A stretch of DNA of 64,000 bases from NCBI GenBank assembly GCA_002633005.1, contig NMRA01000001.1:4501384-4565383 (forward strand), read 5' to 3'. Of this stretch, positions 42,101 through 64,000 are shown piece by piece. Position 1 is the first letter of the stretch. Each line of letters begins with the position of its first letter. This DNA is from Phoronis australis (lineage: Eukaryota; Animalia; Phoronida). The notes under the pieces were generated by a model. The model did no database searches, was not told where the DNA came from, and was given only the letters and a program-made list of their open reading frames with translations. The position numbers and the translations under genes were made by a program.

Positions 42101-45100
42101 TTGTGACGAACCATGGATACAACTGAAGGCTACTGCTCCTCACTGTCGTAATAGTTTTATCTGTTTCTTATTTCAAAGAAACATGATGGTTGTATTTTCT
42201 CAGAGAATTACGCTTACCAGTCGAAACTCCTTTGAGGCAGTAGTTTCCTCATCAGCATTCGTGACCTGTATGATTTGCTTCAATAGCTCCCTACCTTGAC
42301 CACAATGTAATGTTTGTTCAGCTTTTGTTCTGTTTTTACATTGAACATAATTGACTTGTAGTTAAGTTGGTGCCTCTGGCTATGGTTCATGACTCAGTAA
42401 ATGAACCGTCATTAACCACTATTTTCTAACATCTGCCTATTGGTTTCAGACTTGACAACCTAAACCAGTTTAATGCCATTACCAGTTCACTTCACTTAGG
42501 TTGAATAATTTATCTGGGCTCTGTTGCATTAGACCTGTGTAAGGCCATCATGTGTTATGTTGGCATTTGTCCAACTGTCCTGTAGATGTCATCTGTTGGT
42601 TATCTATTGCATGCGCATACTCAGGATCGAACGAGCCCCCTATTTGGCGAAGTGGACAAAAAGGTCTGCCTCAGAGAAACAAAAACTCTGAAAAAAGTAG
42701 GAAATGAGACAATCGTCCACTAAAAAGGCAGGAACTACCTAAATTTGGCGAATGCACAATTTTTAGCTGTGAACGTACCCCGTTTTTATAGTAAAAGGTC
42801 TACATTCTCAAAAATTCAAGCCCCCCATTTTCTATCCTGGGAGCGCACATGTATTGGCAGTGATTAGTTTCATTGGCTCGTAAGGTCATGTGACTGACTT
42901 AACTATTGTGAGGTGGTGATTTTGTTGTAACTTTCAATAGTATGCAGCATTCTGGTCAAAAGCATTGGTCACTTATAAATATGCGTTTTGGGAGGTTTCA
43001 TTGTTATTATATACTTTCTTGCACTGACTGTTTATAGTTTCTTAACCACATTGCCAGAATACATTCAACTACAGGATCTACTGTGCGATTTCAATGGTCC
43101 AGCTATATTGGACTGTAAGATGGGTACACGGACGTACCTAGAAGAGGAGTTACAGAAGGCTAGGGAGAGCTGTAAACCTAGGAGGGTAAGAGGGGTGTGG
43201 GGCAGGGGTGTATCAAGGGTACGGGGACTGTGGATGTGTCTTCTCAACTGTGAGTTGGGTACATAGACCTATCTAGAGGAGGAGATAGAGGGGTGTAAGG
43301 CGTGATGTGGGTACACTGACATACCTAGAATGGGAATGAGAGTGGTGCAGTTTGGGAGGTGAGTACACAGACATTCCTAGAATGAGAATGAGAGGGGTGC
43401 ACGGTGGGAAGTGAGTGTACGGACATTCCTAGAATGAGAGGGGTGCAGGGTAGGAAGTGAGTGCGTGGACATTACTAGAATGAGAGGGGTGCAGGGTAGG
43501 AAGTGAGTGTAGGGACATTCCTAGAATGAGAGGGGTGCAGGGTAGGAGATGAGTGCACGGACATTCCTAGAATGAGAATGAGAGGGTTCAGGATGTGAGG
43601 TGAGGGCATGGACATTCATAGAATGAGAGGGGTGCAGGGTAGGGGTTGAGTGCACAGACATTCCTGGGATGGAAATGAGAAGGGTGCAGTGTGGGAGTAA
43701 AGTAACGTGCAGCATGGGTCGGGCTGCAGATAAAGATTAAAGTGTATTCCTTTTAAGAAGTCACAGTTATATTTTTGTTTAACATTGTTTACAAAAAACA
43801 GGAAGTTTACTGAGCAGTTTTATGTTACTGTGCTGTTGTTTCTTCACGTTTTTTGTTTCTGTGTGACAGGACATGTATGAGAAAATGATTCAAGTGGAGC
43901 CTAATGAGCCGACAGATGAAGAGAGACAGGCACAGGCCATCAGTAAACCACGTTATATGCAATGGAGGGAAACTATCAGTTCTACTGCAACACTAGGTTT
44001 TAGGATGGAGGGCAGTAAGGTATGTATCTAGACATTTAACCTTACCTGTGAGTGGGGACAATGGTGTCAAGTTGTCGATGGTATTCCAGGACAACCAGTC
44101 GTTTAACAAACACTCAGACAATGAAGGGCTTAGTAGGCTAAGTGGCTAGATTGATAGGGATGGCTATAAAGTTATTTAAGTTATTGTCCTCTCCTGTGGT
44201 AATTTATGGCCAGGAATCTGATAGGAAGACCAGAGAGCCCCTTGATAGGGATTTGAAAATCACTTTGTTTGTGTTCTCCACTTCATCTTGGGGTCTGGTG
44301 AGTAAAGCATATGTCCCAATTCTGACATTCAAATGACACTTATCTGGTCAGTTACAACTGTTCAAAGGGAGCATAATTAGTGAATAATTCATTACAAGCA
44401 ACTGGCAGTTTGTTATGAATTGCAGGCAAACAGTGGATTGAAGTGTCGGCGAAAACAGAAATTGGCTAAAAGTTGCCGCTCTTTTTCATGGCATTCAAAG
44501 TCTATGCATATGATCACTTCTCTGCAGAATAACTGACTGCATTTTTGCATTGCTAACCCCGTTAAGTTTGCTGAAGGAAGGTTGCAGTTTTTAATGACAT
44601 TAGATTTTCCTTTGCCCACTTTTTACTCAGATGGTTCCAAACCTGTATATTTATACAACTTTGTAGCAAAAGTAGAAAAACACCTTAATTGCCTCTCTGT
44701 AACCATTGCTGCACAAGCTTTAATAAGATTGCTGATCAGTTATTCAAGCTTTTTATCCAGCAAACGCAATCACCAAGCAAACCTCATTTTCTTACTATTT
44801 CTATTCAAAATATATGATGACCTGTTTGTGTGTGGCAATGTCACTGTACAGTACTCAAGTATGTCAGCATCGTTACTAATATGGTTATGCAAGCTTAGTG
44901 CGCATAGGTTCTCCCAAGAAGCTTATATAGTATTGGCCATGGTTGAATATTTTCTGAGCTTGAGGAAGGTTGTGTACTTTTGAGTCTGATCAATATTGCC
45001 AGTAAGGATTATTCAGACTGGATGACTTAGTGTTATACTCTGGTAGTAGAATCTAGAGTAGTGAAAAATACTGACATATCTGGCTGTTTGCGTATGTAGA

Positions 45101-46216
45101 ATGGTTAGATAATTTTTTAATGTTCTGTTGTAGAAAATTGATGGAAGCTCAAGCAGAGATTACAAAACAACCAAAACAAAAGACCAAGTGAAAGAGGCGT
45201 TGAAGAGTTTTACAGATAGCAACAAAACAGTTCAGGTGAGTTGGACCGTGTATTTCGTCACTTATTTAGGACCATATGCTTGGCCACCCACTTTGGAACA
45301 AAAGATATGCGAATATGTTAAAAACCCGTTGAAAATATTAAAGAACCAAGTAGTGGCAAGTTGTCTAGCCAAAAACAAAAAGTTCTCATCCTCAATTTTT
45401 GTTATCCGTGTTCTCTCACATTTTCAGGCCAAGTATGTACGTAGACTGAGAGCAATCAGAGCAACCCTGGAAAGCTCACCTTTCTTTGCAAGACATGAGG
45501 TAAGTGTTGGTTAGGGTCATGTTCTTCAAACATCTTCAGTGACTTCGTATATGTGACTGTAGGTTATATTGCATTCAGTGGTACTTTACTATACTCTGTG
45601 TCTTCACCAGTATGCTTGTGGACTCTTTGTTATGACAGGGATGACCAACTGTAACATTTGTAACTTTCTATTTAGTGAAATGTTTTGTCTGTGATGCGGC
45701 ATGTTTAACATTTGATCCTTAATTAATCACTGCAACAAGACAATGTGTCATAGAAAAGTACATGACAATGCTGCAAACAAACCTACAGATGCTTGGCAGT
45801 GTTATTGTTGACGCTGCTGATCAGTTTGATTGGTTTACAACCTGCTGGTGGGTTATATGGTCTTAACATATCTGTAGTGACATTGATAAAACTTCGTCCT
45901 TGGTTCACTATGTCATGTTTGTCTACCTACAGGTGATTGGTTAGTTCACAATGTCTTGTTTGTCTTCCTGCAGGTGATTGGCAGCTCATTATTGTTTGTC
46001 CATGACAAAAGTGACAAGGCAAGTGTGTGGATGATAGACTTTGGCAAGAGTGTGCCACTACCCAATGGAGTGACGATCACACACCGCAATAGTTGGAGTG
46101 AAGGGAACCATGAGGACGGATACCTATATGGCCTTGACTCTATGATAGAGTTGTTTGATGAGTTGTTGAGTGATTCAACTGACAATAATAATAGTGATGG
46201 GATGGACAAGGTATAG
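3055..46216 (+). CDS. ITPKA/B/C: Inositol-1,4,5-trisphosphate 3-kinase, spliced model: join(3055-3145,8451-9658,38733-38835,41720-41863,43058-43185,43870-44019,45134-45235,45428-45499,45974-46216), ~746 aa
   Basis: Exons join in phase (2241 nt including stop). IPK-family motifs: [13 protein letters not shown] (calmodulin-binding region), [19 protein letters not shown]-xxx-DCKMG-x-RTY, [33 protein letters not shown]. The catalytic exons are certain; attachment of the two 5' exons is inferred from phase and orientation. Which vertebrate paralog it matches cannot be resolved here. Confidence 0.9.
4282..5719. mobile_element. Non-autonomous Tc1/mariner-pogo-type DNA transposon (1.44 kb)
   Basis: TIRs CCGTATTTGCCCTAGTAACC / GGTTATTAGGGCGAATACGG, TA on both sides; no transposase ORF inside. 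Confidence 0.8.
6790..7530. repeat. Degenerate modular repeat with head-to-head inverted core units
   Basis: Core AAGTTTCATTGAAATCCAT...TTCTCGA.AT twice forward (~7288, ~7474) and in degenerate reverse orientation at ~6793 and ~6940. CAGATTTGGCCACTGCAGCACCCC (~7010) is inverted relative to GGGGTGCTGCAGTGGTCGAATCTG (~7397). Confidence 0.5.
8451..9658 (+). CDS. ITPKA/B/C: IP3K large Ser-rich disordered N-terminal exon
   Basis: 400-codon ORF (8480-9682), acceptor TTTCAG|, donor GCA|GTAAGT at 9659; phase 0 matches exon 38733. Large low-complexity N-terminal exons are typical of IP3 3-kinases. Confidence 0.8.
12508..13477. mobile_element. Old TIR element (Harbinger-like ends) with a nested repeat fragment
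   Basis: Left AGCCCCGTTTCAAATTATCGACATT versus right reverse complement AGCCTGTTTCAGACGAGCGATATT; internal CAGGCCTTCAT-family segment at ~12895. Confidence 0.35.
17021..17278. repeat. 34-bp minisatellite, ~7.5 copies (ACTAGAGCATGCTGTTCATAAAGCCATGCCATGT)
   Basis: Direct head-to-tail copies with few substitutions and no spacers. Confidence 0.95.
18200..19440 (-). pseudogene. Decayed coding-like segment, possibly a LINE ORF1 remnant
   Basis: The minus strand is A-rich with Asn/Asp/Thr-rich broken ORFs (19056-19262) and a coiled-coil-like piece (SKRMTDLE*); many stops. Family assignment is inference. Confidence 0.3.
19584..19950. repeat. ~47-bp tandem repeat (3 copies) interrupted by a MITE
   Basis: AATAGTAACTTGTTGCAAA...GTGTACAGATACTG at 19584 and 19631, with a diverged copy at 19911. 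Confidence 0.75.
19675..19903. mobile_element. 229-bp MITE, CCGTA termini, TA target duplication (Tc1/mariner-pogo type)
   Basis: TA|CCGTAAACGTT ... AATGTTTACGG|TA; internal repeated GGGCGCTTAA / GGGCTGTTAA motifs. Confidence 0.85.
20777..21858. mobile_element. TIR element with a 35-bp perfect terminal inverted repeat (PIF/Harbinger-like ends), centre in assembly gap
   Basis: CCTGGGCCCGGTCTCCAATCTCCGTACTCAGACTC at left and its exact reverse complement at right; subterminal TACTCG/CGAGTA repeats. Confidence 0.85.
21009..21655. other. Assembly gap (N run)
   Basis: Run of N. Confidence 1.
22208..22834. mobile_element. Foldback MITE with ~270-bp imperfect inverted arms (Kolobok-like TTAA|GG end)
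   Basis: CCTTGTTTACCAG..TTGTACTTA, TCTAACCCCTAC, GAAAGGTGAATAAA, GTTCCTCCAATCATA and GTCTTTTGTCAACA all have mirrored reverse complements on the right arm. Confidence 0.85.
25295..25389. repeat. Short inverted repeat, 18-bp perfect arms and 59-nt spacer (mini-MITE)
   Basis: ATAGGTTATTGAATGGTT ... AACCATTCAATAACCTAT. Confidence 0.75.
25461..25571. mobile_element. 111-bp hAT-like MITE
   Basis: CAGTGGCGGATTTAG ... CTGGATCTGCCCCTG; flanks GTTGA / GCTGA (5-bp duplication, 1 mismatch). Confidence 0.7.
27170..27352 (+). mobile_element. tRNA-derived SINE (5' head), truncated by gap
   Basis: Pol III A box TGGCTCAGTGG (27182-27192) and B box GTTCGAATCC (27227-27236) at tRNA spacing, but no closing acceptor stem. 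Confidence 0.7.
27353..27679. other. Assembly gap (N run)
   Basis: Run of N. Confidence 1.
28210..28495. repeat. Degenerate ~45-50-bp minisatellite
   Basis: Recurring TACCTCTAGTAGCAAG(T/C)TTGTCCTGGA(A/G)T.TCC.GC..GGTG motifs, about 6 copies. Confidence 0.6.
29997..30137 (+). CDS. ITPKA/B/C: IP3K candidate alternative first coding exon ([31 protein letters not shown]...KKRLT)
   Basis: accATG start, upstream in-frame TAG (29925), donor ACT|GTACGT in phase 0 compatible with exon 38733; CECDAC cysteine motif followed by a basic patch. Confidence 0.6.
37467..37571 (+). CDS. IP3K weak candidate alternative first exon ([35 protein letters not shown])
   Basis: agcATG, 35 stop-free codons, CAG|GTAGTT donor in phase 0, 1.16 kb upstream of exon 38733. 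No homology evidence. Confidence 0.3.
38733..38835 (+). CDS. ITPKA/B/C: IP3K exon: [35 protein letters not shown]
   Basis: Conserved calmodulin-binding region and QLAGH motif; polypyrimidine tract plus CAGCAG acceptor; donor AAG|GTATGT. Confidence 0.95.
41720..41863 (+). CDS. ITPKA/B/C: IP3K exon: [47 protein letters not shown]
   Basis: Phase 1 in and out; conserved D-x-LRPYVP-x-F/Y motif; followed by U12-type donor GTATCCTT. Confidence 0.95.
41864..43057 (+). other. U12-type (minor spliceosome) GT-AG intron
   Basis: 5' end GTATCCTTG matches the RTATCCTT consensus; branch TTTCTTAAC (43038-43046) lies 11 nt before the 3' end; no polypyrimidine tract between branch and AG; joins flanking exons in frame. 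Confidence 0.9.
42610..42851. mobile_element. 242-bp hAT-like MITE with 5-bp TSD, inside the U12 intron
   Basis: TIR CATGCGCATACTCAGGAT / ATCCTGGGAGCGCACATG flanked by a perfect TATTG direct repeat. Confidence 0.75.
43058..43185 (+). CDS. ITPKA/B/C: IP3K exon: [43 protein letters not shown]
   Basis: IPK signature PxxxDxKxG; donor AGG|GTAAGA. Confidence 0.97.
43246..43700 (+). repeat. Exon-derived G-rich minisatellite (~41-47-bp units, ~10 copies)
   Basis: The first unit is 31/39 identical to exon 43111-43149; later units read GTGAGTGCACGGACATTCCTAGAATGAGAGGGGTGCAGGGTAGGAA. Confidence 0.9.
43870..44019 (+). CDS. ITPKA/B/C: IP3K exon: [18 protein letters not shown]...[25 protein letters not shown]
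   Basis: Inositol-binding lobe motifs specific to IP3 3-kinases; CAG| acceptor, AAG|GTATGT donor, phase 0/0. Confidence 0.97.
45134..45235 (+). CDS. ITPKA/B/C: IP3K exon: [34 protein letters not shown]
   Basis: TAG| acceptor, CAG|GTGAGT donor, phase 0/0; matches the family motif DG-xxx-RDF/YKxTKT. Confidence 0.93.
45428..45499 (+). CDS. ITPKA/B/C: IP3K exon: [24 protein letters not shown]
   Basis: Conserved RL-x-AIR-x-TLE-x-SPFF-x-x-HE; TTTTCAG| acceptor and GAG|GTAAGT donor. Confidence 0.95.
45974..46216 (+). CDS. ITPKA/B/C: IP3K terminal coding exon: [11 protein letters not shown]...MIDFGKS...[14 protein letters not shown]...MDKV*
   Basis: SSLL, IDFG and EDGYL catalytic-domain motifs; stop TAG ends at 46216. 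Confidence 0.96.
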   Translation: MIGSSLLFVHDKSDKASVWMIDFGKSVPLPNGVTITHRNSWSEGNHEDGYLYGLDSMIELFDELLSDSTDNNNSDGMDKV

Positions 46217-47763
46217 TGGTCAACAGTGGTGCGGTGGACAAGGTATAGTGGTCGAATGTTGGGCAAGTGGTCAAAGGGGGCACAGTGAATGGATGAGCCC
46301 ACGGGAAGGGCTGATGCACTATTCAATGTCTCATATGGTTTCCTGTTCCATATGTGTGCATTTTTGAGTTCATTCGCCAAGATGTGAAGATGCGCCTGTA
46401 TCTGGTATTGAGCATGCACTTAACAAAGAACCTAAAAGCATCATTTTACATTGTAGCATGTTAGTAAAACTTGAGTTATCCACTGTGGCATCCAAAAATG
46501 GTGAGCTATGTGTATTAATGCAAATTAGCTTAGCTCGAAACTCATGTCTGTGGCGAAATGAGCTGTGAGGATTTTACCTTGCAAGGAAATGAGATGAATG
46601 TCTCACTTGTTTAATTTCTCATATGTGGTGACTGTAAATCCTCACAGCATGCGGTTGAGGTGAGGTATGTGCCAAATGATTATCTTTGCTAGCCAATGAA
46701 AATTCATCATTTCATCTTCTGACATCAAATCTCTCTTGTTGGTTCATTCTAACCCTATGTATTACATTTATGCTTATTAACACAAAATTTGCAGGTCATT
46801 GACCATTTTGCCTCGCTGTGTGACATCGGGTAAATAAATGTTCACTTGAGGAAAACACCCGAGTAGTAATTCTCCGTCTGCAGTGGCCCTTATAAAACTG
46901 TAGATGTCACCACATATTCAGTGCAACATGTACATCATGTTAGATGATATTATAAATTTGTACAGGTCTTTGCAAAAGACAAATTACTTGTTGTACAAGT
47001 CTTGGGAAACCAGTTTGGAGTTTTCAAAGTTGCAACTGGTGAATATTTTGTGTTGAAGCAAGGTGTTGAGCTACGTGGTTGTTAGGTGTCTGCACATTCT
47101 GAAGTCAAATCTGAGTTTACCATACACATTTTACTTCAAATTTCAATGTGTGCCAGTACTAGGAATTGGATGTTTGTTTAATTAATTTAAAGATGTGATC
47201 ACTCGGTAGGTGTATCATTTATTTGGCACAGGATTATTTTATGTGATTAATTACCAATGTGGGGATTATGGATATCCATGGCTTATTACCAATATAGTGG
47301 TCAAAACTGTGTTTGAACATTTTGGTGGTTTCATTCTTGTCTTGCCATCGTGTGTTGTTCTTTGCAGTTTGGGTTAGGATTTGTCTAGTATAATGCGGTC
47401 TACCTATCTCCGGAGGTGATGGTTTGTCCACAAATATGTGCTCTAGCTATCTTAGGGGACCCTTCGTTCACTATTTTACTGTCATCATTACTAATTAATT
47501 TTCCATCGGGTTATTTGTCCAAGGTTTGTGTTAACCTGAGCCTAACCACTGGTGTTGGCCAGTGTATTGTATGGCTTGTTGTTGCACAATATTGTTGTTG
47601 CACCATATTGTTGTACTATTTTACTATTTTGTTGTTCATGTTTTGTTGTGCTGTTAGCACAACACCGGAAATATTACGTTTCAGTTCTTGAGTAAAAACC
47701 TGACGTGTCTTATTTATTGTTCAAATGTTTACTTCAAGCTACCTGCTGGGCAGCAATGAAATT

Positions 47764-47769
47764 AATAAA
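47764..47769 (+). terminator. Candidate polyadenylation signal of IP3K (AATAAA)
   Basis: AATAAA followed ~25 nt later by a T/GT-rich tract; implies a ~1.55-kb 3' UTR. Another AATAAA lies at ~46833. Confidence 0.4.
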
Positions 47770-49780
47770 TTTATTTAATTGTACTTTCGATTTGTTTTTT
47801 CCCTTAAAAGTCATTTTCTTAGCTGGATTTTTTTCATGTAGAACTTGTTTTTAACATTTCGAAAACATTAATTTTTTCATTAGTCAGTGTGATATTTTGG
47901 ACTAATTTATGTTTCTGCTCTCTGCTCTGTCAAGTATCAGTATGTAATGACATGGGGTGTGCTCTCTGGGAAGCTCTGAGGAGGAGCATGAAGCAATCCC
48001 ATGTATGGCCTCAACCATGTTCGGTCACTGCATTGTGGATTGTCCAAACACTGATTGATCTTTCTAATGCTTTTCTGTCTTCATTACTAAGTTAATTTTA
48101 ACTTTGATACGCACTAGATAGTTCATTTTTATGCGCCCACATATTTATATGTAGGCACATAAAAGTGATTTTTTTTGTAAATAAAATACAATCGCACAGT
48201 ATAAAAGTGAAGATATGTGGGTAAATTTTCATTAAAATCTGAAGACCCAAATCTATTCTCAAAATATATAATGTGTGCTCACCAGAACATAGTTGCTTAC
48301 CTGTTAGGCTTTGCAATATGGGCCAGTGGCCTTACTACCAGAAATAGATTGATCATGGTGAGTGAACATTATGTTAAATTCTCAATATTTTTGAAAATAA
48401 ATGGAAACCTTTCAATGCAAAACAAGGCCTCAGTTTTCACATTACCAGAGTTAGAAAGCAATGTGAATAAAAGAGGAGCCCATAATAAATATAATAAAAG
48501 CTATGGAAAAACAACAGTTGTGCATAAACAAAGACACAATGTGCAGAAGACTGGGGGAACTGGGTGGAGTCCCTGTTTGTCTGCTTCTGCAACCAAGTAC
48601 AGGTCCCTTAAAATGCCTTTGGAAGCTAATTGAAGAGCCTATAAGGGCAACCTTTTATGAGCATTTTTTTACATTGCTGACGAAGCGCCTCATGGTTTTG
48701 TCGAGAAAGGCTTGGCTGAAGTTGTCGCTCAGCGTGTCCTCCACTGAATGTCTCAAATCTGAAGCAAAACGGGACAGGGTAAATCAAGAAAGTAATCAAT
48801 TATTTTTTGCGATGCCTTTCTTTGATCAGTTCAGTAAAAGCCTTTCTGAAAAAGTGATATCCGAGATATCAGTTAAAAAAGTTAGCAAATCGATTTTACT
48901 TATTAGACTGTCTAATCTGCTTAATAAAAGCGGATATAAAAATATTTATAATATAATAAATAGAAATCAATTGAAGCCTACTGCGCAGAGGACGTTTGAC
49001 TGAGATTTAGGGTACCTTATTGATACCTGTATTTGGAAGAGTTATTATAAAACCCTTCTGTGAGGTGTAAATGTTACAAAAAGCGCCATTTTCAATACAA
49101 ATTGTTGTACACGATCTTTTTTACAAATGCTAGACGGATGTTTGAAATTAATTGTTGATTCTGACTCCACTACCTGGTGTGTTACGCGTTCTTTGTGGCG
49201 CATATTGAGAGCAAAAAAGAAAAGGCACTCAATTGTTCTTTATTGTATACAAAACATTACATTTTTGCGTAACAGAAATTAAAAGCAATAATTTTAATTT
49301 GAATATTTTCGCAAATTATTTGAAAACAATTTTTATTACTGAAAATAATATTTTAAAACATAGCAATCCTGGATCGGTAGAACAACAAGAACTTTGGACA
49401 CCATGGAAGTCTACTTTTCCTCGGTAAATATTTCATTCGCTTAGACATGTGGTTTAGCAACTAGTCTGAGAGCACCTGCAAATGGCGTGTGAATGTGGTT
49501 TATGTCTTAAACTGATAATATTGTTAATTTGTAATGTTGTGTTTGAAGAATAAAGGGTTAAAAAGTAACCAAGAGCTCTTCTATTAGTAGGGACACAAAA
49601 TTTAAAATATCCTCAAATAATAAAATCCCCAGCTTGTAGCAGATGGGCTTGGTGTAATTCCTGAACTTACTTTGGCAGATGTGCTCCGTAAAGCAATCTT
49701 CTGAGTTGTCTTGACTACGACAGTTATTGATAGTCTATGATGCTACAGCGTACAAACGATGATGGAACATGAGAGAACTG

Positions 49781-50376
49781 CAGCCTCGTCCCCAGGCCTC
49801 AAGATGACTCAGATCAGTTAAACCATTTGAGGCTTGGTGAGGAGATAATCCTTCTGCGCGCTCATTGGCCGTAGATGACGCTCACCACTGAAAAGGCCGA
49901 CACAAGAAACTTTAAAACACTAAATACTTAAATACCAATTCTTGAATATTGTTGTCCTTACTTCTTTGATGTGATAAATTTGAATGTTTTTTTTTCTAGA
50001 AACTAAGCAAGATCCAAACGTAGATTTTAATTATTTTCATCGGTGTTGTTGTTCCCAGCAGATTAACTCAAGAGTCAGTTGATTCGGAAGCAGAAGACAT
50101 TGTTTTGATTATTGTTTTATTGATGGCAACATAAAATTATTCTGTTTTTAATCAAGATAATCCTTTTTGCAATAATCTAGACCTAAACTGGTGCATAATT
50201 ACCGTTAGTTTTGATTTTGGTATTATGCTACAGCACACTTAAACGTTGATGTAACTTTATATCGCCCGATTTCCGTAAAAATATGTTAGACTTCTGGCAA
50301 GTTAATTTTTGTTCCCCAATGAAACCTCAAATGGCTAAACCGATCATCGGCATCTTGAGGCTTGGGGACGACCCTG
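49781..50376. mobile_element. 596-bp MITE with ~50-bp imperfect TIRs
   Basis: TCGTCCCCAGGCCTCAAGATG...CCATTTGAGG mirrored by CCTCAAATGG...CATCTTGAGGCTTGGGGACGA; flanks GAGAGAACTG / GAGAAAATTG. Confidence 0.75.
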
Positions 50377-52699
50377 GAGAAAATTGTAGATTAGTTGGAG
50401 TATACGAGTTGCGCATGTCCGGGATATTTTATAACACACCTAAGTTATAATGAAGCTTATTCCATGACAAAATGACCACAAACACTCCCACTTGGAAAAT
50501 TAAACCCTGATACCAATTTTAGAATAGTTATTATTACGTAATTTTGGTATGTATGCATCATAGATACGTTTCTGTTGAAAATGAAGCAGTGTGCAACTGT
50601 TACAGATTTTGTCTGTGCTGCATGATAATTTGGTAAAATAATACGCGTGTCTCCATCATGGCATCAAAAGCAGTTAAATTGTTGAAATTGTTAACATAGC
50701 TTAAAAAATGAACAGACCAAGAACTGAACCTTGAGTTGCATCGGTATAACCTGCAAATAGATTCGGTGTGATTAAATTCATTAAACATAATGCGCACGAT
50801 TACGTGGCCCAGATAGGAGACGAATCATGAGTTATGTGCCAGGATGCCTGTGATGCCGCAATGTTCGAGGTTTTTCAGTAGAATAGTATGGTGTATTCTA
50901 TCAAACGCTTTAGAAAGATGGAGGAAGGTTGCAATTTTCCGAAGCCTTTTTGCGGTTGAAGTTGCTCTCAACAATTAAGTATACGTGTAATGTTGGTCGT
51001 GCATAACTTTTCGAAATATTTTTGAGATGACTGGCAACAGATATCGGTCGATAATTATTGAACTGTATATAGTCTAACCCGTCGACTTTAAAGACCTGTA
51101 TGGCTTTTGCAATTTTTGCAAGACAGGGAACTTAACCAGAATGCTATGTGCAGAGACTGGGCATAATGTAAGTCAAAGTTGAAGATAAATTATCATAGCC
51201 TAGTGGAGAATTTGGAAAACATATTGATAGTACTGAAGCGTCTTGTGATCTATGCACTAACCATTGCGAAATGAGTTCAACGTAGGGGAGATATGAAGAA
51301 AAAGATCGCAGTTTGCTGGCGTCCAAATACTTTAGAGTTAAGACCAATGTTCATGAAAAAAGAAACACAGGAAAACACGTTTCATCATCAGTAAACATTG
51401 TGTGCATGAGTCTCACATAGAACTGGGGTCATAAATGGGGCTACGGGGAATACAAAACATGCAGATACCTGTTTATAAGTGTATGAAAACTTGAGCAAAT
51501 GCAACAGAATTCATTTACTTGTTAATACCAACACTTCTGAATGAACAAAGAACATTCATGTTTTATTAATAATGAGTTTAAACTGAAAAAGTAATTATAG
51601 CTAAACTGGCTTCAAATCACACCCATAAATAAATTTGTGTTGGAGAGTTCATCTGGCTCCATTTCGCCAGTAAATGCACCTAAATACAAGTTTTTTCAAA
51701 CCATGTAATAACAATTCAAAGTTGGGGGCTACGGAGAATACAAAAGATATTTTTGCTTATGATCAATTCAAATCCAGGAATTTGTCTAATATTTTTTGTG
51801 GACCAAAGATAGCTTCTAGATTCCCAATGTGCAGTATCAAAAATCTTTTATTAATGGAAAAATTTAATGGAATTCAGACAGTGCTACGGAGAATAGACAG
51901 TTTTTTTAGGTGACGGTGATATTATTTAGTTGAGGAATCCAATCACCAGGACATCTGGTACAAATATGTGGTTTCTAAATCAAATTCTATATACCATCAA
52001 CCATTAAAAAACACACTTCAAAACACTAGTAATGCTTTTCTTTTTCAGCCATGTATGTAAGAGAAAGAGCACATGCAAATTTAGTGTTTTTGCATAACAT
52101 TAATATCATTTTGCAAGTTTGCCTGGAAATTGTGTTTGATATTTCAGATCCCTGCAATCACCTGAAGAAAAATAAGAAATACATCTTAAGATCATGAAAA
52201 AACATTAAATTTCAAATGAATGTGTGATTTAATTAAATGCCATGTGAATTAAAAACATGCAATGTTTCAGTGAAACAAAATAACGATGGATTTCTGGCTA
52301 TTTTCAGCTATATAAAGGATTACTCTGGCCATAATTAACATCTTCGTACTTTAAAATGCGTAAATGTCATAAGTACCGGTGCTATAACAAGATCACCATA
52401 CAAATATCTGCCAGAGGTGAAGGAATCCTGTCAATATGATTGCATAACATAAAAATGTAGATTTGCACCCTGAGTAAAAAAATGCCTTAGATTGCCGAGA
52501 TTTTTCTGTTCTGGTAACAAAGGAACATCAGTCGTGGTTGCGTCTTATCTCACTGGCTTTCAAGTTTTTCTATCTTGTTTTATGCTAACCCTTTATTGGC
52601 CCCTCTGGTTATTTTTAATAACATAATAAATCTGTCTCAAGAACATGCGAGAGACTATTTTTCTCAATTTAAAAATATTATTACGCTACGTTCCGTGGC

Positions 52700-52763
52700 G
52701 TTAGTTCATTTTCAACTGTCATGGCCGCTCCCTGTTAATTCTCGCGTACAAGACTTCTTGAAG
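52700..52763 (+). promoter_or_regulatory. MTIF2: Candidate non-coding first exon/promoter of MTIF2
   Basis: CpG-enriched patch with CATGGCCGC (YY1-like) and TCTCGCG, then donor GAAG|GTACGG at 52764; the next acceptor at 54165 sits 10 nt before the MTIF2 ATG. Left boundary approximate. Confidence 0.45.
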
Positions 52764-52929
52764 GTACGGATGGACGTCATGTCTTCAGATGCAGTTGCGA
52801 TTAAAATGAGAGCGAATATACAAAAAAGTACCCAAGTGATTGTTAATTGCAATTGTGCGTAACGTAGAGCTGAAAGTCTTTGTCTTACTCTGGCACAGTT
52901 GTAGGCGTCGTCTGGGCAGTGGGCACTGC

Positions 52930-53347
52930 CACTGGTCGGATACTACGCCAAATACGGACCCCATTTAGAGAACCAGTTCCATACACTGAGTTACAGACCC
53001 AGTGCTCAATGATGAAAAACAGACCCAGTACTCAATGATTGCCTAGCTCTCTAAATCAGAGACCACTATATCTGACCAGTGCCTCCTGTGGACTGGTGTG
53101 GATGCTAAAGAAACTAGGCTAATGAATTGATTAAGATTGACTGGGAGTGACTAGGGGCACAAAAAAAAATTCCTTTCTGCGAGTGTAGACAAGTTCCCCA
53201 GTATGTCCTACCTCCTGTTTACATGGGTAATAGGACAGTTGGTGCTGGTATGTGTCAGCCCCCAACTAGTTTCATCCACTGAATATCAGTCCTGTTATCC
53301 AGTGGCAGATCCATGGTTTCCTGCTGACTCGTAATATCCGACCAGTG
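52930..53347. mobile_element. 418-bp MITE with CACTG termini
   Basis: CACTGGTCGGATACTACG ... CGTAATATCCGACCAGTG (17/18 inverted match); no clear TSD. Confidence 0.7.
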
Positions 53348-53573
53348 TCCACCAACCCTGATTTTGCTTTGCATTGCCTACTTCTCTGGAATAATTGGTC
53401 TACCCTCTTTAATCAGGCTAGCAGGTCTACGTCTTCATTTTAACATTTTTAAGCGAGTGTACTGCATGATCTACATTGCCACAGGCAAAAATGCTATGGG
53501 ACATTTTCATAACCACTTGAGTTTTGCTTGGCTTTGGAATTTTCTAAAGAGGGTAAGCTTGAATTACTAGTAT

Positions 53574-53823
53574 CAGGGCTTGGAATTTCCCTCTTTTAAG
53601 AAAATTTCTTCTTTTTTGGCTTTGATTTCCTTTTATTTGATTTCCAGTTTGCTCTTTTTTCGTCTCTTTTATCATTATTTTGACTTTATTTATGCAAAGA
53701 CGTTCATTTCAGTTAAATTTTACGACAAAAAATTATTTGTATCACACAAGCCTATTTATTTGTGGAACGATACATCACCTGGAAAAATTTCCTCTTTTTT
53801 GTCATTGGTCATTCCAAGCCCTG
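53574..53823. mobile_element. 250-bp hAT-like MITE with 6-bp TSD
   Basis: Perfect 13-bp TIR CAGGGCTTGGAAT / ATTCCAAGCCCTG flanked by TAGTAT on both sides. Confidence 0.85.
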
Positions 53824-54174
53824 TAGTATGTTATGCAATCTTATTTAACCTTGCACAGGAATAGTTTCTAAGAGGCAAGGTTTTCAAGCTTGGAATTCAG
53901 TGTTGAAAAAAGTAACTGGCCCAACAACCTTGTTCTAGACTCTTGTCAAACCTGATTCACCTTATCCATCAGCAGTCTTTTTCAAGCTAACCGAGCAATG
54001 GTTAGTAAGAGAACAAGGAAATTCAAGCTTGGAGAAAAATATTAAATAAGGAACATTCTATTAAGCTTGACCAAGCTTGGTAAAATTTAATTCTAAAATT
54101 ACCGCCATTTTTAAAGATTTGCCCAACTCGGGATAATCATAATAACATTGATTTCATATTTTAGATCTAACGTA

Positions 54175-54390
54175 ATGAACTGCCTCCGGCTCGCCCTGAA
54201 GAGGTTTGACTTACTCTCCTTGGAGGCTGTTCTTCACCGTGTGCCTGCTGTCTACTCAGTGGGAACTCCAGCTGCATGCTGTTTTGACTGCACAGATACG
54301 AGGTCACGGACTGAGTGGAGTGTTCCACGAAGATTTAGCACGGCTAATGTTATGCAAGCAGCAAGAGCAAAGAATTCCAAAAAGAAACTG
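54175..54390 (+). CDS. MTIF2: MTIF2 first coding exon (mitochondrial targeting peptide)
   Basis: [11 protein letters not shown]...PRRFSTANV; acceptor TTTTAG| at 54165; donor CTG|GTAGTG, phase 0. Confidence 0.75.
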
Positions 54391-57300
54391 GTAGTGACTT
54401 GCGTATTTTGAACATTTGATTTATGACTGATACTTTTAGCTTTTAGTATTATTGCAACTGTTTTAACTTTAGAATGGGTATGATTTTAGGTATAGTGATA
54501 TCTTAGAAATGAAGAGAACTGATTCTAAGTGTTTTCCAAACTGTGTGTTATAGTCTTTAGAATTACGTAAATTTGAAACATGATCTAGATTCATGATCTT
54601 TTAAAACTTGTAGAGACTAGCAGATTCTTGAACAATGTCGTGTTCAGTCTTGTGTCTGCCTAATAATGATAATCTTACATACTGTATTGGATCACGGAGC
54701 AGATTTTAGTTATAATCTTACATATTGTATTGGATCATGGATCAGATCCCAATGATAATCTTACATACTGTATTGGATCATGGATCAGATCCTAATGATA
54801 ATCTTACATAGTGTATTGAATCGTGGATCAGATCCTAATGATAATCTTACATACTGTATTGGAACATTTATTAGGCTCCAAAACCAATCCAAGTGCGTCC
54901 CAAGAAGAAACGAAATAGTGTGGTGACTATATGGAAGAACATGACAGTGGCAGAGTTAGCGACATCTATGGGCAAGGATGTTGGTGGGTAGCAGCGATCA
55001 TTGCACATTACATAGTCCATGCTGATCATATTTATCTCACCATATTATGCATCAAAGGTTGTGCCAGTACAGCTTCCCTCTACCATTCTACTGTAGTTAT
55101 TCTCTGGAGTCATCTTCTGACCTGCGCGCTCATCGCCTCACTCACAAGGCTGTACTCTAGACTTTTTGTACCATGTAATTGCCTCCTTTTTAAAAACCCA
55201 CATTGGCATAGTTTTTCTTCACATATTTTTATATTGTTTGGAGCACTTTCAACTATTTATTACTGATCTAGGCATCACGTTATTAGATTCAAATTTGCGT
55301 GCCTGGCTGCTTTGCAATAAGAAGTTTTGTGACCTAAATGCTTCTGATAGAGTCCTTCCCATAGACATAGTATTAAGATGTCTAATAGAGTCCTTCCACT
55401 TTCCTAATGCATGAGCATTTTCATATACCCAAAAGCAAACAAAATTGGCTTGAAAACATGAGACGTAATGTGAGTGCAGTTGAAATGACATCGTTTACTT
55501 TGAACAGTTCTTTAGGGTCAGGCAAGAGCATTTCCTTGTTCTCAAAATATCTGTTTTAACTCCTCTGTCTACTGGGTTGGTGGATGTAATATCTGTTGTA
55601 TATTTAGGTGGAGACGTCAACCTGGAAATGTGTGCAAATTTTATACTTGCTGGGTGATCAACTCAGCTGCAGCATATGAGCCGACACACAACACATCTAG
55701 GCCTGCCTTGCTGTCATAACATGGCCCCACAACAATGTTTTGTTCATGGTATACAGCTAATGCTCTGTTTTGTAGATCATGTGTATGAAGTGATGATGTA
55801 CATTGAAAGTACAAATAAGTACGACCATGATTCTGCCGGTAAGTACATGTGTAGCTCTGCATACAATTGTATAGAATCAACATGCCATGTCTTGGAGACA
55901 CTAATCATGACATGTTTTCTAGTGTGGACATTGGTGCTGGTAAATGAAGAAAACAGTAACATTTTGTTAATCTTAACACGAAGAAGAGTATTCACTTTTA
56001 TGCACTCACCCACCCAGATAACTTTCCATGAAAAAGACGATAACACCGTTTCATTTTCAGATGGATTTTATGTATTGTATCCACCTTTCTTAGTGGAATT
56101 GTTTAAAATAATGATCATGCCTTACATCTGTGGTATATGCGATGAACACAGGAGCTGCATATCAACTTGGGCCCTTGCTCACCTAAGGAAAAGATGTCTG
56201 TTCCTTCTGGGAGATGAATTCTCTCCACTCCCCGCCCCCCCTCCGTACAACCAATTACACTCCCGCTCTTCCCTCATTGCCGCCCCCATCAGCTCTGCCA
56301 AGCCAAAACTTACATTTTGTGCTTCTTTCAAAATGTCGTCGATTGCACATGTAGGGATGTTATAAGGTTGTCAGATAGTGAATTTCTTTGCTCAATGGTA
56401 TATAATTACCCGTGCATTAGCTATAAACTATCAGATTATGTTCTCCTTATTGAGGCTGGTATCGCTGGTAAGGCATGCCTATGAAGTGAGGATTTTCACA
56501 GTTGATAAAACCTTCTGAAGTTAAGGTTCTGTGTGTAAGTTAAGAGTAATTCTAACCTTGAAGGGAATTCTTTAATCACTGGAGGGTATTTTTTCGGCCT
56601 AGTGAGGGTTCGGTAATTCTATGTATGTGTCAGAGGGAATCGGGGTGATAATGGGCCCCGAAATCGAGGCATCGAGAGCCCTGTCAACTTTGCGTTGCTC
56701 TTACTATTACTGGTGCTCAGTGCTGTCTTGTTTTGTTTATGTCTTATGTTTGTTATCGGTCAACTGTTTTTATCATATAATCACCATGACGATTATGATA
56801 GTTCATTGTGTTGTTTTCATAGCCATTGACAACATGTCAGTACTGCAGGAAATCTGTGAAAAGTCTGGCTTTCGCTACATCACTGGAAGTGCTCCAGGTA
56901 AAGTGGAAGTAAAGGAATGCCGTGATGTGTTCAGGAGGTGAGTGGTGATGGCAGGCTGTAATGGTTCAAGTGGTTCACACAATTCATCAACACATCTTGT
57001 CAATAAATATTTGTCTATGAATTACTGCAGTTTTGAAGTGTTGCCAACAAGCACTAAACTTGTATTATACCTTGTTAATGAATGTGAGTGCAAAACTGTG
57101 GTGAACTATTGCCTGATCGAATTTAAATGTTTTGATATCTGTGCAGGCCCAAAGAAGAGCATGTGAACATGGTGAAGCGCCCTCCTGTGGTGACTATTAT
57201 GGGTCATGTGGACCATGGTAAAACAACGCTATTGGACAGTCTCAGGAAGTCAAACATTGTGGAACAGGAGTTCGGAGGAATAACACAGCACATTGGAGCC

Positions 57301-60300
57301 TTCTCAGGTTGTAATCATTTCCACCCAGGACAAAAGATGAAACCACTCTAACTGCAAAACTATCCAAAATTTGCATCATTGTACCGGGAATTTTTTAATG
57401 ATTTGTACTTGTCATAAACATTTTGCATGAAATGACAATGAATAAATAAAGAGTAATGTTTGTCATTCTTAATTGTTTTAATTTATGGGAATGTTCCGTG
57501 TTTTGTGTTGCTTGAATGTAATAAGCAGCCTGTGATGTTTGTAATATAACAGTATGGGCATGTAGCGTGCAGCAAGCAGTAGGGGTGGATACCCATGCAG
57601 CAATATTGGTGCATGTCATGCAGCAATATGGGTGCATGCCATGCATTAATACAGGTGCATATGGATGCATATCATGCCTGGCAATATCATTGCATATCAC
57701 GCAGCAATATAGTGCATACCATACTGCGGTTAACATTATGGTATTGTTAATTTGTACTTTTATTAACCCTTACTATTCGTGTAATGTTTTCATGTTGTTC
57801 TCACTATTTCCAGTGTCACTGCCCTCTGGTGAGAGAATAACCTTCCTCGACACACCTGGTCACGCTGCATTCTCAGCTATGCGAGCTCGTGGGGCGCAGG
57901 CGACGGACATTGTTGTACTAGTCATTGCTGGGGAGGACGGGCTGATGAGTCAAACTATTGAGTCCATACAGCATGCACAGGAAGCACAAGGTAAAGGTGG
58001 TTACAGGATGCAGGGGTACAGTTTTTGGGATAGGGTGTTGTTGACGGATGAAGGGTAGGGGTGAATACAGGATGCAGGAGTACAGTTTTTGGGATAGGGT
58101 GTTGTTGACCGATGAAGGGAAGGGGTGGATACAGGATGCAGGGGGTACAGATATTGGTTAGGGTGTTATGTTGTGGGGTGCAATATAGGGATGGATATAG
58201 GATATGGAGGTTGGATGAAGAGGTGTAATGAAGGCTAGATTCATTGGTCACAGAGTCTTCTCCATTTCTTTGGTTTCAAATAGCCTAGACGTTAAGTTAA
58301 ACCTCATACCTACTTTCTTCCACTGAAACTAGTGATTTCTTTCAGCAATTCTGTAAAAAAACATACCCAATCCTCTTTGTTGAAAGCATATTACTTATCT
58401 TTATTTCAGTTCCAATTATTGTTGCCATAAACAAGATAGACAAACCTGAAGCTGATGTGGTGAGTGTTTTGATGGATTTAAATATCTTTTGAACTTCAGT
58501 TTAAAAGTCAATTAACTGTAACAGTTATAAATACTTTCAAAGAACATTTTAATTTATGGTATGGGGACACTTTAGCACACCAATTTGGAGATATTTAATT
58601 TAACAGTCGTAGGATTAGACTGTCCACAGAGATGCGCTTAAATATCCTGTAGTTCTCAAAGTAAACAGGACAACTTCAAACCTTGACAAAGTTTCAATGT
58701 TCAAATGCGCTGCCTGCTAAATACCCATCTCATTGTCTCAAAATTCTTTCTAAACGTCACCATATCTTCTATGGTTTTATGTCTTGTTGTTGACTGGAAT
58801 TCTATTTTGTCCACTTTGCCGAAATCATGACAATTTAATTTTTGGCTGGCGAAACTGTGACACTAATTGCCGTCATGCCTCAATAGAAATTTCAACTCGC
58901 ACTGCAGGCCTCAAACAGTGCACTTTTAAGATCAGGTCAGCATGACTCACCTCATGGCTCAAAACTGAGTTGCGTCTGTTTGTTTAAAGTCAGTCCACAT
59001 AAGTTTTGCAGTCGCAGCGTTTTCACCACCTGGCAGGTTGTTGCAGACATTGAAAGTATGACAAAACCACAGTTGTTAACAATGGTGGAACCTGCGAAAA
59101 GGCTGCGACTTTTACGGTGTTATGTGGATCAGCCTTGTTACTCTTTCCAGAATGGACCTTGTGCATTGTGGAAAGGTTAAGTGCAATATGTTTTACAGAT
59201 TAGACTGTATCGCTTCAGTCGAACACCAGTGACCAGTTTAATCATCAGTGAATTTGTACCTCTACTAGTCACCGCAAATTAATAGCCAACATATTTTTAG
59301 TACACCACAGACACATGGTTGACACCTGAAATAGAACAGCTCGGGTTCATTTCAGATACATCAGGGACTCGGAGGTGACTGTTCAAATTAACATAGAACT
59401 GGTAGTCCAACTCCAGTGAGTGACTTGTGTCCTCTGTTAGGTTGAGATTTCAAAGGACTGGCCGTGATTATTTGCTCTGTGTATTTCTGGTTGTTTGCTC
59501 CACTGAGTTTTGATCAAGTAATGTAGCTATCGAATCAAGCCTCTTTCGGAGTGTACACACATAGTGTGTGACCTTATGGAGGTGTACACACGAAGTGTGG
59601 CCTTAGAGAGGTGTACACATGTAGTGTGACCTTATAGAGGTGTATACATGAAGTGTGACCTTATAGAGGTGTATACACAGAGTATGACCTTGAAAAGATG
59701 CTGCCATTCCTGTGCTGCATGGCTGAGGTATTAAAAGTAATCAATATCATATTGATGAGGTCACTACCATGTGGCCTTGTTGGGAGGGCCAAAATGCATT
59801 TGACGTCATTCTTATGTTGAATTGCAATTTAGAAGATATTGGAATCGGCAAGTGCCTACTAGGAACTAGTGTATCCCACAATGCTGTGTTTCAGGAGAGA
59901 ACCAAGCGTGGTCTGATGTCACAAGGCCTCGTGCTTGAGCAAGATGGCGGAGATATCCAAGTTGTACCAATATCAGCTCTCAAGGTTTGTATTTGATCTG
60001 TGTATGTTGTCCATATATTTGTGTGTATGTTGCTCATGCTTGTGATGCTCATGCTTGTGATGCTTATGCTTGTGATGATGTTCATGCGTGTGATGTACGG
60101 GCGTGTGATGTTCGGGCGTGGGATGTTCATGCGTGCGATGTTCATGCGTGTGATGTTCATGCGTGTGATGTTCATGCGTGTGATGTTCATGCGTGTGATG
60201 TTCATGCGTGTGATGTTCATGCGTGTGATGTTCATGCGTGTGATGTTCATGCGTGTGATGTTCGTGCGTGTGATGCTCGTGCGTGTGATGCTTATACGTG

Positions 60301-63300
60301 TGAAATTCACATGTGCTATTTTGATTTGTATGATAGTCATGTGTGTGATGTTTATGGGTATCTTATTCATGAGCCTAAAAATTATGTTCCTTTTCAGGGC
60401 ACCAACCTGTTACAACTGCAGGAGGCCATAGTGACACTGGCTGAACTAATGGAACTGAAGGCTGATCCTGACAGTGCAGTGGAAGGTGTCGTGATTGAGT
60501 CAAAGACAGACCCCGGTAGAGGGTATGTGTTGATTGTAACAGTGAAGTAGATGGTGAAGGTGATAAGTCTAAGACAGACCCTGGGTACAGATCATCCAGG
60601 GCATGAAGTTGTAAAAAGAATGTCTGAATCGCTCCCTTTTAAAAGGGCAAACTTGGACGGCGTCAGTGTATCTGCATGAGGTTCTTAACCACTTCCTGTT
60701 GATGGCGGACCAGTCTTCCTCATGGCCAGCTTGTGTGTTTGCGTATGTAAAATGTGTTTGTGTGAGTGAGTGCCCACATGCGTGCCCAAGCTCTATCAAC
60801 CTTACATTCTTCTCCAGGAAGCTGGCCACAGTATTGGTGCAGAATGGCACTCTGAGTCGTGGTGCCAACCTTATTGCTGGTGTGGCATGGGCCAAGGTGC
60901 GAGGAATGTTTGATGAGCATGGGAAGCCAGTACAGAGTGCAGGGCCTAGCACACCGGTGGAGGTGATAGGATGGAGGGAGCTGCCATCAGCAGGGGACGA
61001 GGTACTGCATGTGGAGTCAGAGGTGAGTCGGGGAAGGATGCGATGTTATGGGGGGTGAGGTACTGCAGATGGAGAAAGTTGAGTGGGGGATGTGATGTCA
61101 TGAGGTGCGAAGTACTGCAGATGAAGACAGAGGTTAGGAAGGAAGGATGTGATGTTATTGGGGGTGAGGTAGTGCACATGGAGATAGAGGTTAGAGGTGG
61201 GGGGAGGTGCGAGTGGAAGTGATTTACTGTAAGGATGTGGCTTAACTTGAGAAATTGAAAAAATTCAATACTGGGGACTTATGTACACATTCAAGTCTTT
61301 CACTTTGAATTGCCTTTGAATGCTGAAGCAATGTGTACTTTTTGCTATTTAGTCAAGATTGAAGGAAGCACTTGCATGGAGAATTCAACAACAAAAGCAA
61401 GAGAAAATGGATAAAGATGCCGTGATAATTCAACAGAAAGCTGAAATATATCAGGAAATGTATCAACAGAAACTACAGGAGAGGTTGTCAAGTGGACGGA
61501 AACGATATCGTAAGACAATGAAAGAGAAGGAAAGTCAAGACATGAAGGAGGGACCTGAGTTATGTGTGGTAATTAAAGGTCAGTATCACTGTATGGCGGA
61601 GGGTTGCGATATCAATGAGAGGCCTCATGTTCTGTTTGGTGGTTAAAGGTCAGTATCACTGTATGGTGGAGGGTTGTGATATCAATGAGAGGCCTCATGT
61701 TCTGGTTGGTGGTTAAAGGTCAGTATCACTGTATGGTGGAGGGTTGTGATATCAAAGAGAGGTTTGTGTTATGTTTGGTGGTTAAAGGTCAGTGAGTATC
61801 ATTGTATGTATGACCGAGGGTTTTGATATCAAGGAAAGGCCTGAGCTATGTGTATACCTTTCTATGTGGTTGAGAGTATCAAGTTGTGTGTCATTAAAGA
61901 TGAAATGCACCTTGGTCAGTCTTGAGATCAAGAAAAGACTTAAGAGTTGATAATGTAGAAATATTTGTCTTTGGATGAAAAAAATATATTTGTTTTAAAG
62001 AGCCTTTGAAAAATGATCAATGATTTTGTGCTACTTAAATGCATGATACCACAACCCTATATCATACAGTGATACTGACCTTTTAAAAAGGACTTTGTCA
62101 AATAATTTCTTAAGCGTTTGAAACAAGTTTTGCTCATTGTAACAGACGGCTGAATTTGTGATGTTTTCACAAGTATCTGAGTGTATTGTCTCAGGTGAAG
62201 TGTTCACCCTTGAATGGATTGTTACAGGTGATGTAGATGGGTCAGTAGAAGCTATTCTGGACACATTGGATACCTATCAGTCACCACAGTGTCGTCTCAA
62301 CATCCTTCACTATGGAGTGGGGCCAGTAACTGAGGGAGATATTGAGAGAGCTGCTGTGTTTAATGGTAAAAATGCTGAACTTTACTTAAATGTATTTCGA
62401 GCACAGCTTAGGTAAACTGACCTTAGGACGTCTGGTTTTACGTCATTTGTGACCCGCCGATGTAGTGCTCAATATAATGATTGAGATTAGCATTTTTATA
62501 GTATTGGCAGTGATATAGAGTACTTATTGGTACGAAAATTTGGTGGTAATTGCTATCCATGCACAGAATTATGTAAGTTTGCCAGATGTTTCGAGTATCA
62601 TCAATTTTAATAAAAACAGCTTATTATTCAAAATGACTTATTCTTATTAAAATGACATGGGCAAGAAATTGAATTTTGACCTCAAAAGTGGGGCCGCCTA
62701 TATTAATAACGAGGGCCCGCTCTCGCTCGAAGGGGTCCGGAGAGCGGGAATGCCTATATTAATATAGAGAGCCCCGCTCGGAGGGGTCCCAAGAGCGAGG
62801 TCATCAATATTCATATAGGTGGCCCCACTTTTGAGCCCCAAAATTCAAATTGTTGCCCATGTCATTTTAATAAGAATAAGTCGTTTTAAATAATAAGCTG
62901 CTTAAAATGTATCAGGAAGTTGGCAAAGACCACTTTTAAGCCGGTAACATAACAATAAGGCTCACTCCTCCAGAACTGCCAAGCAGCGTTGGATTAGCAT
63001 TGGCTCTGCTGGCCATTCTTTCATCGATATCCCAATTCAGTTTGTAAGGGTCTCCATGACAACTGTAACCAAGGATCACTCTTGTGGTTTCATAACACAA
63101 CGCAATATTAATCAAGATGTGGACACCTAGATCATAATTACTGGTATGTATGGGGTGAACTAAATTTTTGTGTAGGATATCTTACTGTCATTTGCTTGCT
63201 GACATTTTCAGGTCAAGTTTTGGTTTTCAATGTGAAGACTGAAGAGAAGTTGAAGAAATTGGCCGCTTCTAAAGGCGTGGCAGTCAAGACTCACAATGTC

Positions 63301-63802: not shown

Positions 63803-64000
63803 CAGCTTATTATTTAAAATGACTTATTCTTATTAAAATGACATAAGCAAAAAATTGAATTTCGGACCTCAAAAGCGAGGTCCCCTATACTAATATAGGG
63901 GGCCTCGCTGAACGGAAGCCGGAGAGCGGGGCCCCCTATATTAATATAGGGGGCCCCGCCGAAAGGAGGCCGGAGAGCGGGGCCCCCTATATTAATATAG
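63803..64000. mobile_element. Palindromic MITE, copy 2 (truncated by window end)
   Basis: Same terminus CAGCTTATTATTTAAAATGACTTATTCTTATTAAAATGACAT; internal ~52-bp units GGGGCCCCCCTATATTAATATAGGGGGCCCC. Confidence 0.9.

What the first reader, a model, noticed from the sequence alone, without database searches (positions are those of the whole stretch)
43111..62240. Recurrent exon-edge echoes: exon ends and splice junctions repeatedly tandem-duplicated into adjacent introns in two unrelated genes
Seen: about 8 independent cases within 19 kb where tandem or degenerate copies derive from the exon edge, usually including the splice site. Donor side: 43246-43700, 57991-58215, 60547-60590, 61057-61200, 61579-61855. 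Acceptor side: 45902-45983, 62180-62236. Stop-codon region: 46203-46253. Each has a different unit, so this is not a dispersed transposon family. By contrast, the 29-kb intron shows only a few arrays. Known: tandem duplication of AG|GT-containing segments is a proposed route to intron gain and splice-site shift. Inference: a junction-focused duplication process (slippage or repair linked to transcription or splicing), or selective retention, acts in this genome and leaves arrays of decoy splice sites the spliceosome must ignore.
Basis: partly seen in the sequence, partly recalled or inferred. Interest (0 to 1): 0.85.

Follow-up and report, generated by a model that had tools for sequence, protein, structure and literature searches.

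The report
Mirage repeats at invertebrate exon edges
In two neighbouring genes of a likely mollusc-like invertebrate, seven to nine exon edges have been copied head-to-tail into the adjacent non-coding DNA while the RNA reads seen join at the true sites; this repeat type ("mirage") is already described in lancelets and is likely a tolerated by-product of ordinary local DNA duplication.

Summary
Real, but a known kind. The region holds an inositol-trisphosphate 3-kinase gene (ITPK) and a mitochondrial IF-2 gene (MTIF2). Its other 2 are weak (p 0.009 and 0.02, uncorrected). Units are 32-70 nt with 1-9 extra copies. Public DNA contigs span five of the nine echoes. RNA from three other samples joins at the exon-proximal sites at all five echo junctions that were listed; depth is low and NMD would hide decoy use. 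These are "mirages", described in amphioxus (Adh3, globins, PGBD5) and matched by the human F7 intron-7 VNTR; this scan has noted them in at least six genomes. Boundaries carry about 4-5 times more duplications than the window's background predicts (P 0.001), but this weakens (P 0.04, or 0.07-0.38 for MTIF2 alone) once slower decay and local rate are allowed for, and the window was pre-selected. Intron-gain geometry is absent. One lead: exons with donor-side echoes have G-richer ends (p 0.003, post hoc).

The parts
8451..46216 (+). Inositol-trisphosphate 3-kinase gene (ITPK), coding exons 8451-9658, 38733-38835, 41720-41863, 43058-43185, 43870-44019, 45134-45235, 45428-45499, 45974-46216 (stop)
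   Evidence: Open frame; Pfam IPK PF03770; homologs named ITPK; junctions exon 3 to 8 seen in RNA; exons 1-2 joined by prediction only
54165..63376 (+). Mitochondrial translation initiation factor IF-2 gene (MTIF2), exons 54165-54390, 54875-54983, 55776-55838, 56823-56937, 57147-57307, 57814-57990, 58410-58459, 59895-59984, 60398-60522, 60818-61022, 61353-61578, 62228-62365, 63212-63376; continues beyond the window
   Evidence: Open frame; Pfam GTP_EFTU, EF-G_D2, IF-2; best PDB matches are mitochondrial IF-2; junctions exon 9 to 13 seen in RNA
43112..43704 (+). ITPK exon-4 donor echo: source 43112-43247 (135 nt across the donor at 43185/43186); 9 units of 46-52 nt (last one longer) at 43248-43704, each a fusion of exon 43112-43151 with intron 43189-43206, the true donor deleted; new donor-like motifs, best at 43358; very G-rich
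   Evidence: authentic donor used in 69 reads
45903..45984 (+). ITPK exon-8 acceptor echo: one 41-nt copy (45903-45943), 35 of 41 identical to the authentic unit; decoy acceptor before 45933 would shift the frame
   Evidence: authentic acceptor used in 92 reads
46190..46253 (+). ITPK stop-codon echo: 32-nt unit across the stop (46190-46221) copied once into the 3' UTR (28 of 32 identical); not at a splice site, though the unit carries a weak donor-like motif
54665..54879 (+).
   Evidence: this junction was not among the rows shown
57967..58224 (+). MTIF2 exon-6 donor array: 64-nt unit, 2.6 copies, starting at the donor (57990/57991); exon homology is short and weak
   Evidence: p 0.02 uncorrected
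60463..60592 (+). MTIF2 exon-9 donor echo: 68-nt unit copied once (60531-60592), 42 of 68 identical; homologous GT lost
   Evidence: authentic donor used in 18 reads
60974..61214 (+). MTIF2 exon-10 donor echo: about 57-nt unit, three decayed copies (64-66% to source), weakened GT in two
   Evidence: authentic donor used in 11 reads
61539..61855 (+). MTIF2 exon-11 donor echo: 70-nt unit, three copies plus a partial one; three decoy donors (61648, 61718, 61787) identical to the real one over 9 nt, all leading to a premature stop
   Evidence: authentic donor used in 23 reads
62178..62236 (+). MTIF2 exon-12 acceptor echo: one decayed copy 33 nt upstream (18 of 24 identical); decoy acceptor before 62195 would add 11 codons in frame without a stop
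   Evidence: p 0.009 uncorrected; authentic acceptor used in 23 reads
9453..9536 (+). Control case: 42-nt in-frame tandem duplication wholly inside ITPK coding exon 1

Best explanation
These are mirage-type repeats: short stretches across an exon boundary are present in tandem copies in the flanking intron or UTR, likely made by ordinary local duplication, likely kept because the copy still joined to the exon leaves the mRNA unchanged, and then likely amplified and decayed as neutral minisatellites. Shown: the copies, their geometry (donor copies always downstream, acceptor copies always upstream, the authentic unit at the exon-side end of the array), and use of the exon-proximal site in the RNA junctions listed. 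Inferred steps: (1) a 30-135 nt tandem duplication arises by slippage or break repair, as elsewhere in this window (22 non-coding events, 0.37 per kb); (2) duplications inside coding exons are mostly purged (only one survives, in frame, in the poorly conserved N-terminal exon), while boundary-spanning ones survive; (3) unequal exchange or slippage amplifies some units and homogenises internal copies; (4) the copies drift, losing C on the sense strand, and stay recognisable longer because the exon template is conserved; (5) exon definition and 5'-proximal donor choice make the spliceosome pass over the decoys, with NMD likely removing rare errors.
For: 7 clear and 2 weak echoes among 42 boundaries. 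Background near-tandem duplications are common: 22 non-coding events, 2 hits in a shuffled window. One in-frame 42-nt duplication inside ITPK exon 1 and none in the MTIF2 coding sequence. An echo at the stop codon, a constraint boundary that is not a splice junction. Internal units are more like each other (82-91% matches in TRF) than like the source (50-76%), as in amphioxus globin mirages (PMC3087553 section 16). Authentic sites used: 69, 92, 18, 11 and 23 junction reads at five echo junctions; no RNA depth inside the exon-10 and exon-11 arrays. Copies lost 19 of 36 C but 18 of 84 G (Fisher p 0.001), in the direction of the G over C excess of the 29-kb intron and 3' UTR. Human F7 shows that identical downstream pseudo-donors stay silent (PMC1557585 abstract).
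Against: Exons with donor echoes have G-richer ends than the rest (0.32-0.43 against mean 0.26; p 0.003, post hoc), and arrays reach 40-44% G, far above the intronic 20%, which neutral decay alone explains poorly. The stop-codon unit carries a donor-like motif (score 5.8 where real donors score 1.4-12.0), so it is not a clean non-splice control. The intergenic stretch 48500-52600 has a similar small G excess, so the transcription link of the skew is not shown. In run X7, up to 4 reads ran unspliced through the exon-9 echo into intron 9 and no spliced read was listed there.
Confidence: 0.65

Rival explanations
1. A junction-focused mutation process: G-rich exon ends and splice junctions form R-loops or G-quadruplexes during transcription, or lie in break-prone linker DNA, so tandem duplications arise there more often than elsewhere.
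For: 4-5 fold excess at boundaries; G-rich source exons (p 0.003); 27, 13, 5 and 4 G-runs and no C-runs on the sense strand of four donor-side arrays; the mechanism of mirages is stated to be unclear in PMC3087553; earlier notes of this scan report many junctions affected in other genomes (unchecked).
Against: Window selected for the pattern; excess not significant for MTIF2 against its local rate (P 0.07, or 0.38 with persistence); acceptor-side echoes are not G-rich (exon-2 array 17% G); only 1 of 5 donor arrays holds a canonical four-run motif; G-rich sources may simply favour later amplification, not the first duplication.
Confidence: 0.22
2. The arrays are kept by selection because they work: as G-run intronic enhancers next to the donor, or as regulated decoy sites that tune output through NMD.
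For: G-rich arrays sit directly downstream of donors; three exon-11 decoys keep a 9-nt donor identical to the real one while exon-derived parts diverged; donor-like motifs arose anew in the ITPK exon-4 units.
Against: Most introns of both genes have no such array and splice without one; splice signals are lost or weakened in the exon-9, exon-10 and ITPK exon-4 copies; no decoy junction was listed; amphioxus mirages gave no aberrant mRNA (PMC3087553, PMC3902484 passages).
Confidence: 0.08
3. The introns themselves were gained by tandem duplication of an exonic AG|GT segment (Rogers model), and the echoes are its traces.
For: Several junctions have AG|GT on both sides (2-6 ambiguous bases); the mechanism is real (review PMC3443670, passages).
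Against: That model puts the downstream exon's start at the intron 5' end and the upstream exon's end at the intron 3' end; 0 of 38 such tests passed correction (best p 0.007 and 0.027). The observed copies lie the other way round.
Confidence: 0.03
4. The arrays are assembly artefacts or chance similarity.
Against: Copies differ from each other and from the source by 10-50%, which mis-assembly does not produce; contigs of run X1 span five of the nine echoes' sites (six counting the stop echo with the exon-8 acceptor separately) with 0-2 differences; seven cases exceed all controls.
Confidence: 0.02

Closest known systems
Amphioxus 'mirage' minisatellites: Adh3 (Canestro et al. 2002, not held; known here only through PMC3087553 and PMC3902484), globins BflGb6 and BflGb9 (PMC3087553, section 16 read), troponin C and PGBD5 (PMC3902484, one passage read)
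   Same: Tandem units spanning exon-intron boundaries on both donor and acceptor sides; several per locus; units 10-160 bp against 32-70 nt here; many but not all copies keep AG/GT; internal homogenisation; normal splicing.
   Different: The host is not a lancelet as far as tested (best ITPK matches are molluscs at 63-70%, no Branchiostoma among the 120 listed). Copies here are older (50-88% to source, against 81-100% for BflGb6; PGBD5 copies are also imperfect). One echo spans a stop codon. Copy-number variation was not shown here.
Human F7 intron-7 37-bp VNTR (PMC1557585; abstract and outline seen)
   Same: First repeat spans the exon-intron boundary; identical pseudo-donors downstream stay silent, as at MTIF2 exon 11.
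   Different: Single locus, young and polymorphic, tested by mutagenesis; nothing here was tested experimentally.
Intron gain by tandem genomic duplication of AGGT (review PMC3443670, passages seen)
   Same: Short tandem duplication that contains splice signals.
   Different: Needs an exon-internal duplication whose two AGGT copies become donor and acceptor; geometry not found here.

Membership tests
Mirage minisatellites | Tandem repeat whose unit spans an exon-intron boundary | tested here: met
   Clear for ITPK exon-8 acceptor and MTIF2 exon-2 acceptor, exon-9, -10, -11 donors; ITPK exon-4 units join exon and intron sequence across a deleted donor; weak for exon-6 donor and exon-12 acceptor; the stop echo is outside the strict definition
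Mirage minisatellites | Duplicated potential splice sites in many but not all copies | tested here: met
   Homologous GT or AG kept in 6 of 9 cases; three identical decoy donors at exon 11
Mirage minisatellites | Normal splicing at the authentic, exon-adjacent site | tested here: met
   69, 92, 18, 11, 23 reads at five echo junctions; no decoy joint listed (floor 3 reads); joint table was cut (113 rows not shown); exon-2 acceptor and exon-6 donor junctions not displayed
Mirage minisatellites | Internal homogenisation of units | tested here: met
   TRF 82-91% matches among units against 50-76% to the source
Mirage minisatellites | Length instability between alleles or somatic cells | tested here: inconclusive
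   Only one DNA sample; the contig over the exon-10 array has depth 16 against 25-40 nearby, which could mean a divergent second allele or G-run bias
Intron gain by tandem genomic duplication | Intron 5' end resembles downstream exon start and intron 3' end resembles upstream exon end | tested here: not met
   0 of 38 tests significant after correction
Intron gain by tandem genomic duplication | Intron absent in orthologs | not testable with these tools
   No eukaryotic genomes could be fetched (no relative's gene structure available)
Dispersed transposon family | Shared unit among loci, high copy number | tested here: not met
   Units differ and each matches only its own exon; DNA depth over echoes 16-79, against thousands over true repeats at 62557-62984

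The most novel reading that the evidence does not exclude
G-rich exon ends are mutational hotspots: co-transcriptional R-loop or G-quadruplex formation at the exon-donor boundary seeds tandem duplications there several-fold above background, so that roughly one boundary in five of ordinary housekeeping genes in this animal carries an echo. Mirages would then be a genome-wide footprint of a splicing- or transcription-coupled mutation process across marine invertebrates, not a lancelet curiosity.
Probability: 0.2. Interest if true: 0.65.

Novelty: new member of a known kind. Interest (0 to 1): 0.27.

Why it matters
As it stands it extends a published but little-studied repeat class to a dense cluster in another invertebrate, adds a stop-codon case and a G-richness lead, and warns annotators that such copies can mislead gene models and read mappers. 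The origin of mirages is stated to be unclear in the literature read, so a genome-wide test in a species with this density could separate biased mutation from survival and detection bias, and the arrays are natural tests of how splice sites are chosen among near-identical decoys.

Tried and rejected
Whole-genome control: no genome is held for this window, so all controls are within 64 kb. Reverse-complement controls gave no hits. Intron-gain geometry: rejected. Intron-only arrays at 57558-57722, 59543-59700, 60034-60371 and 39646-39725 showed no clear likeness to nearby exon edges (scores 14-25) and were counted as background. A borderline echo of the MTIF2 exon-1 donor (54385 against 54604, score 35) and weak hits at ITPK exon-6 donor, exon-5 acceptor and MTIF2 exon-4 donor (p 0.02-0.05) were not counted. 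No listed holder of the stretch is on record as RNA in the index; the RNA evidence comes from three raw-read runs with the same species label, of which 18-19% was read. A>G against T>C asymmetry in the copies was not significant (11 of 74 against 2 of 44, p 0.13). Papers not held: PMC117041, PMC2791625. Searches found no genome-wide enrichment test of mirages and no report from molluscs or annelids, but the library lacks most subscription papers, so this is weak. Searches gave only background (PMC2927911 abstract seen; PMC2812944 listing only). No supplements were opened.
Full report
What the region is. The window is intron-rich animal DNA with two + strand genes. I built exon chains that give open frames with GT-AG at all 19 introns. 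The first is an inositol-trisphosphate 3-kinase (Pfam IPK on three exons tested, one below the curated cut-off; named homologs). The second is mitochondrial IF-2 (Pfam; best PDB matches). The best named ITPK matches are molluscs (63-70% over one exon) and no Branchiostoma is among the 120 listed of 477, so the host is likely a lophotrochozoan; this rests on one 80-residue exon. No whole genome is held.

Noticed in passing
window 9453-9536: 42-nt in-frame tandem duplication inside ITPK coding exon 1 (two 14-residue repeats in the long, low-complexity N-terminal region).
   Followed up: partly
window 54385-54415 and 54604-54634: Borderline decayed copy of the MTIF2 exon-1 donor region 219 nt downstream (score 35); not counted as an echo.
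   Followed up: partly
   Followed up: partly
window 62615-62900 and 63806-64000: Very high-copy dispersed element (DNA depth up to 50,000) with internal 51-nt repeats and apparent inverted ends, present twice in MTIF2 introns 12 and 13.
   Followed up: no
window 42627-42800, 48126-48152, 53597-53824: Other high-copy repeats with heavy DNA and RNA coverage on both strands.
   Followed up: no
window 46217-48400: ITPK 3' UTR appears about 2.1 kb long from stranded RNA depth.
   Followed up: partly
window 60523-60737: In RNA run X7, up to 4 sense reads run unspliced into MTIF2 intron 9 and no spliced read is listed there.
   Followed up: no
window 43080-45219: All three RNA samples differ from the reference at fixed exonic sites (five within 48 nt of ITPK exon 6), suggesting a divergent population or cryptic species.
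   Followed up: no
window 38730-38735: ITPK exon 2 starts at a tandem CAG-CAG acceptor (NAGNAG), which would allow a one-residue isoform.
   Followed up: no
window 20760-21860: Inverted terminal repeats with short 6-nt periodic units flank an assembly gap in the 29-kb intron; likely a transposon.
   Followed up: no
window 16899-17396 and 28198-28496: Deep-intron minisatellites (34-nt unit, 7.6 copies; 92-nt unit, 2.3 copies).
   Followed up: partly
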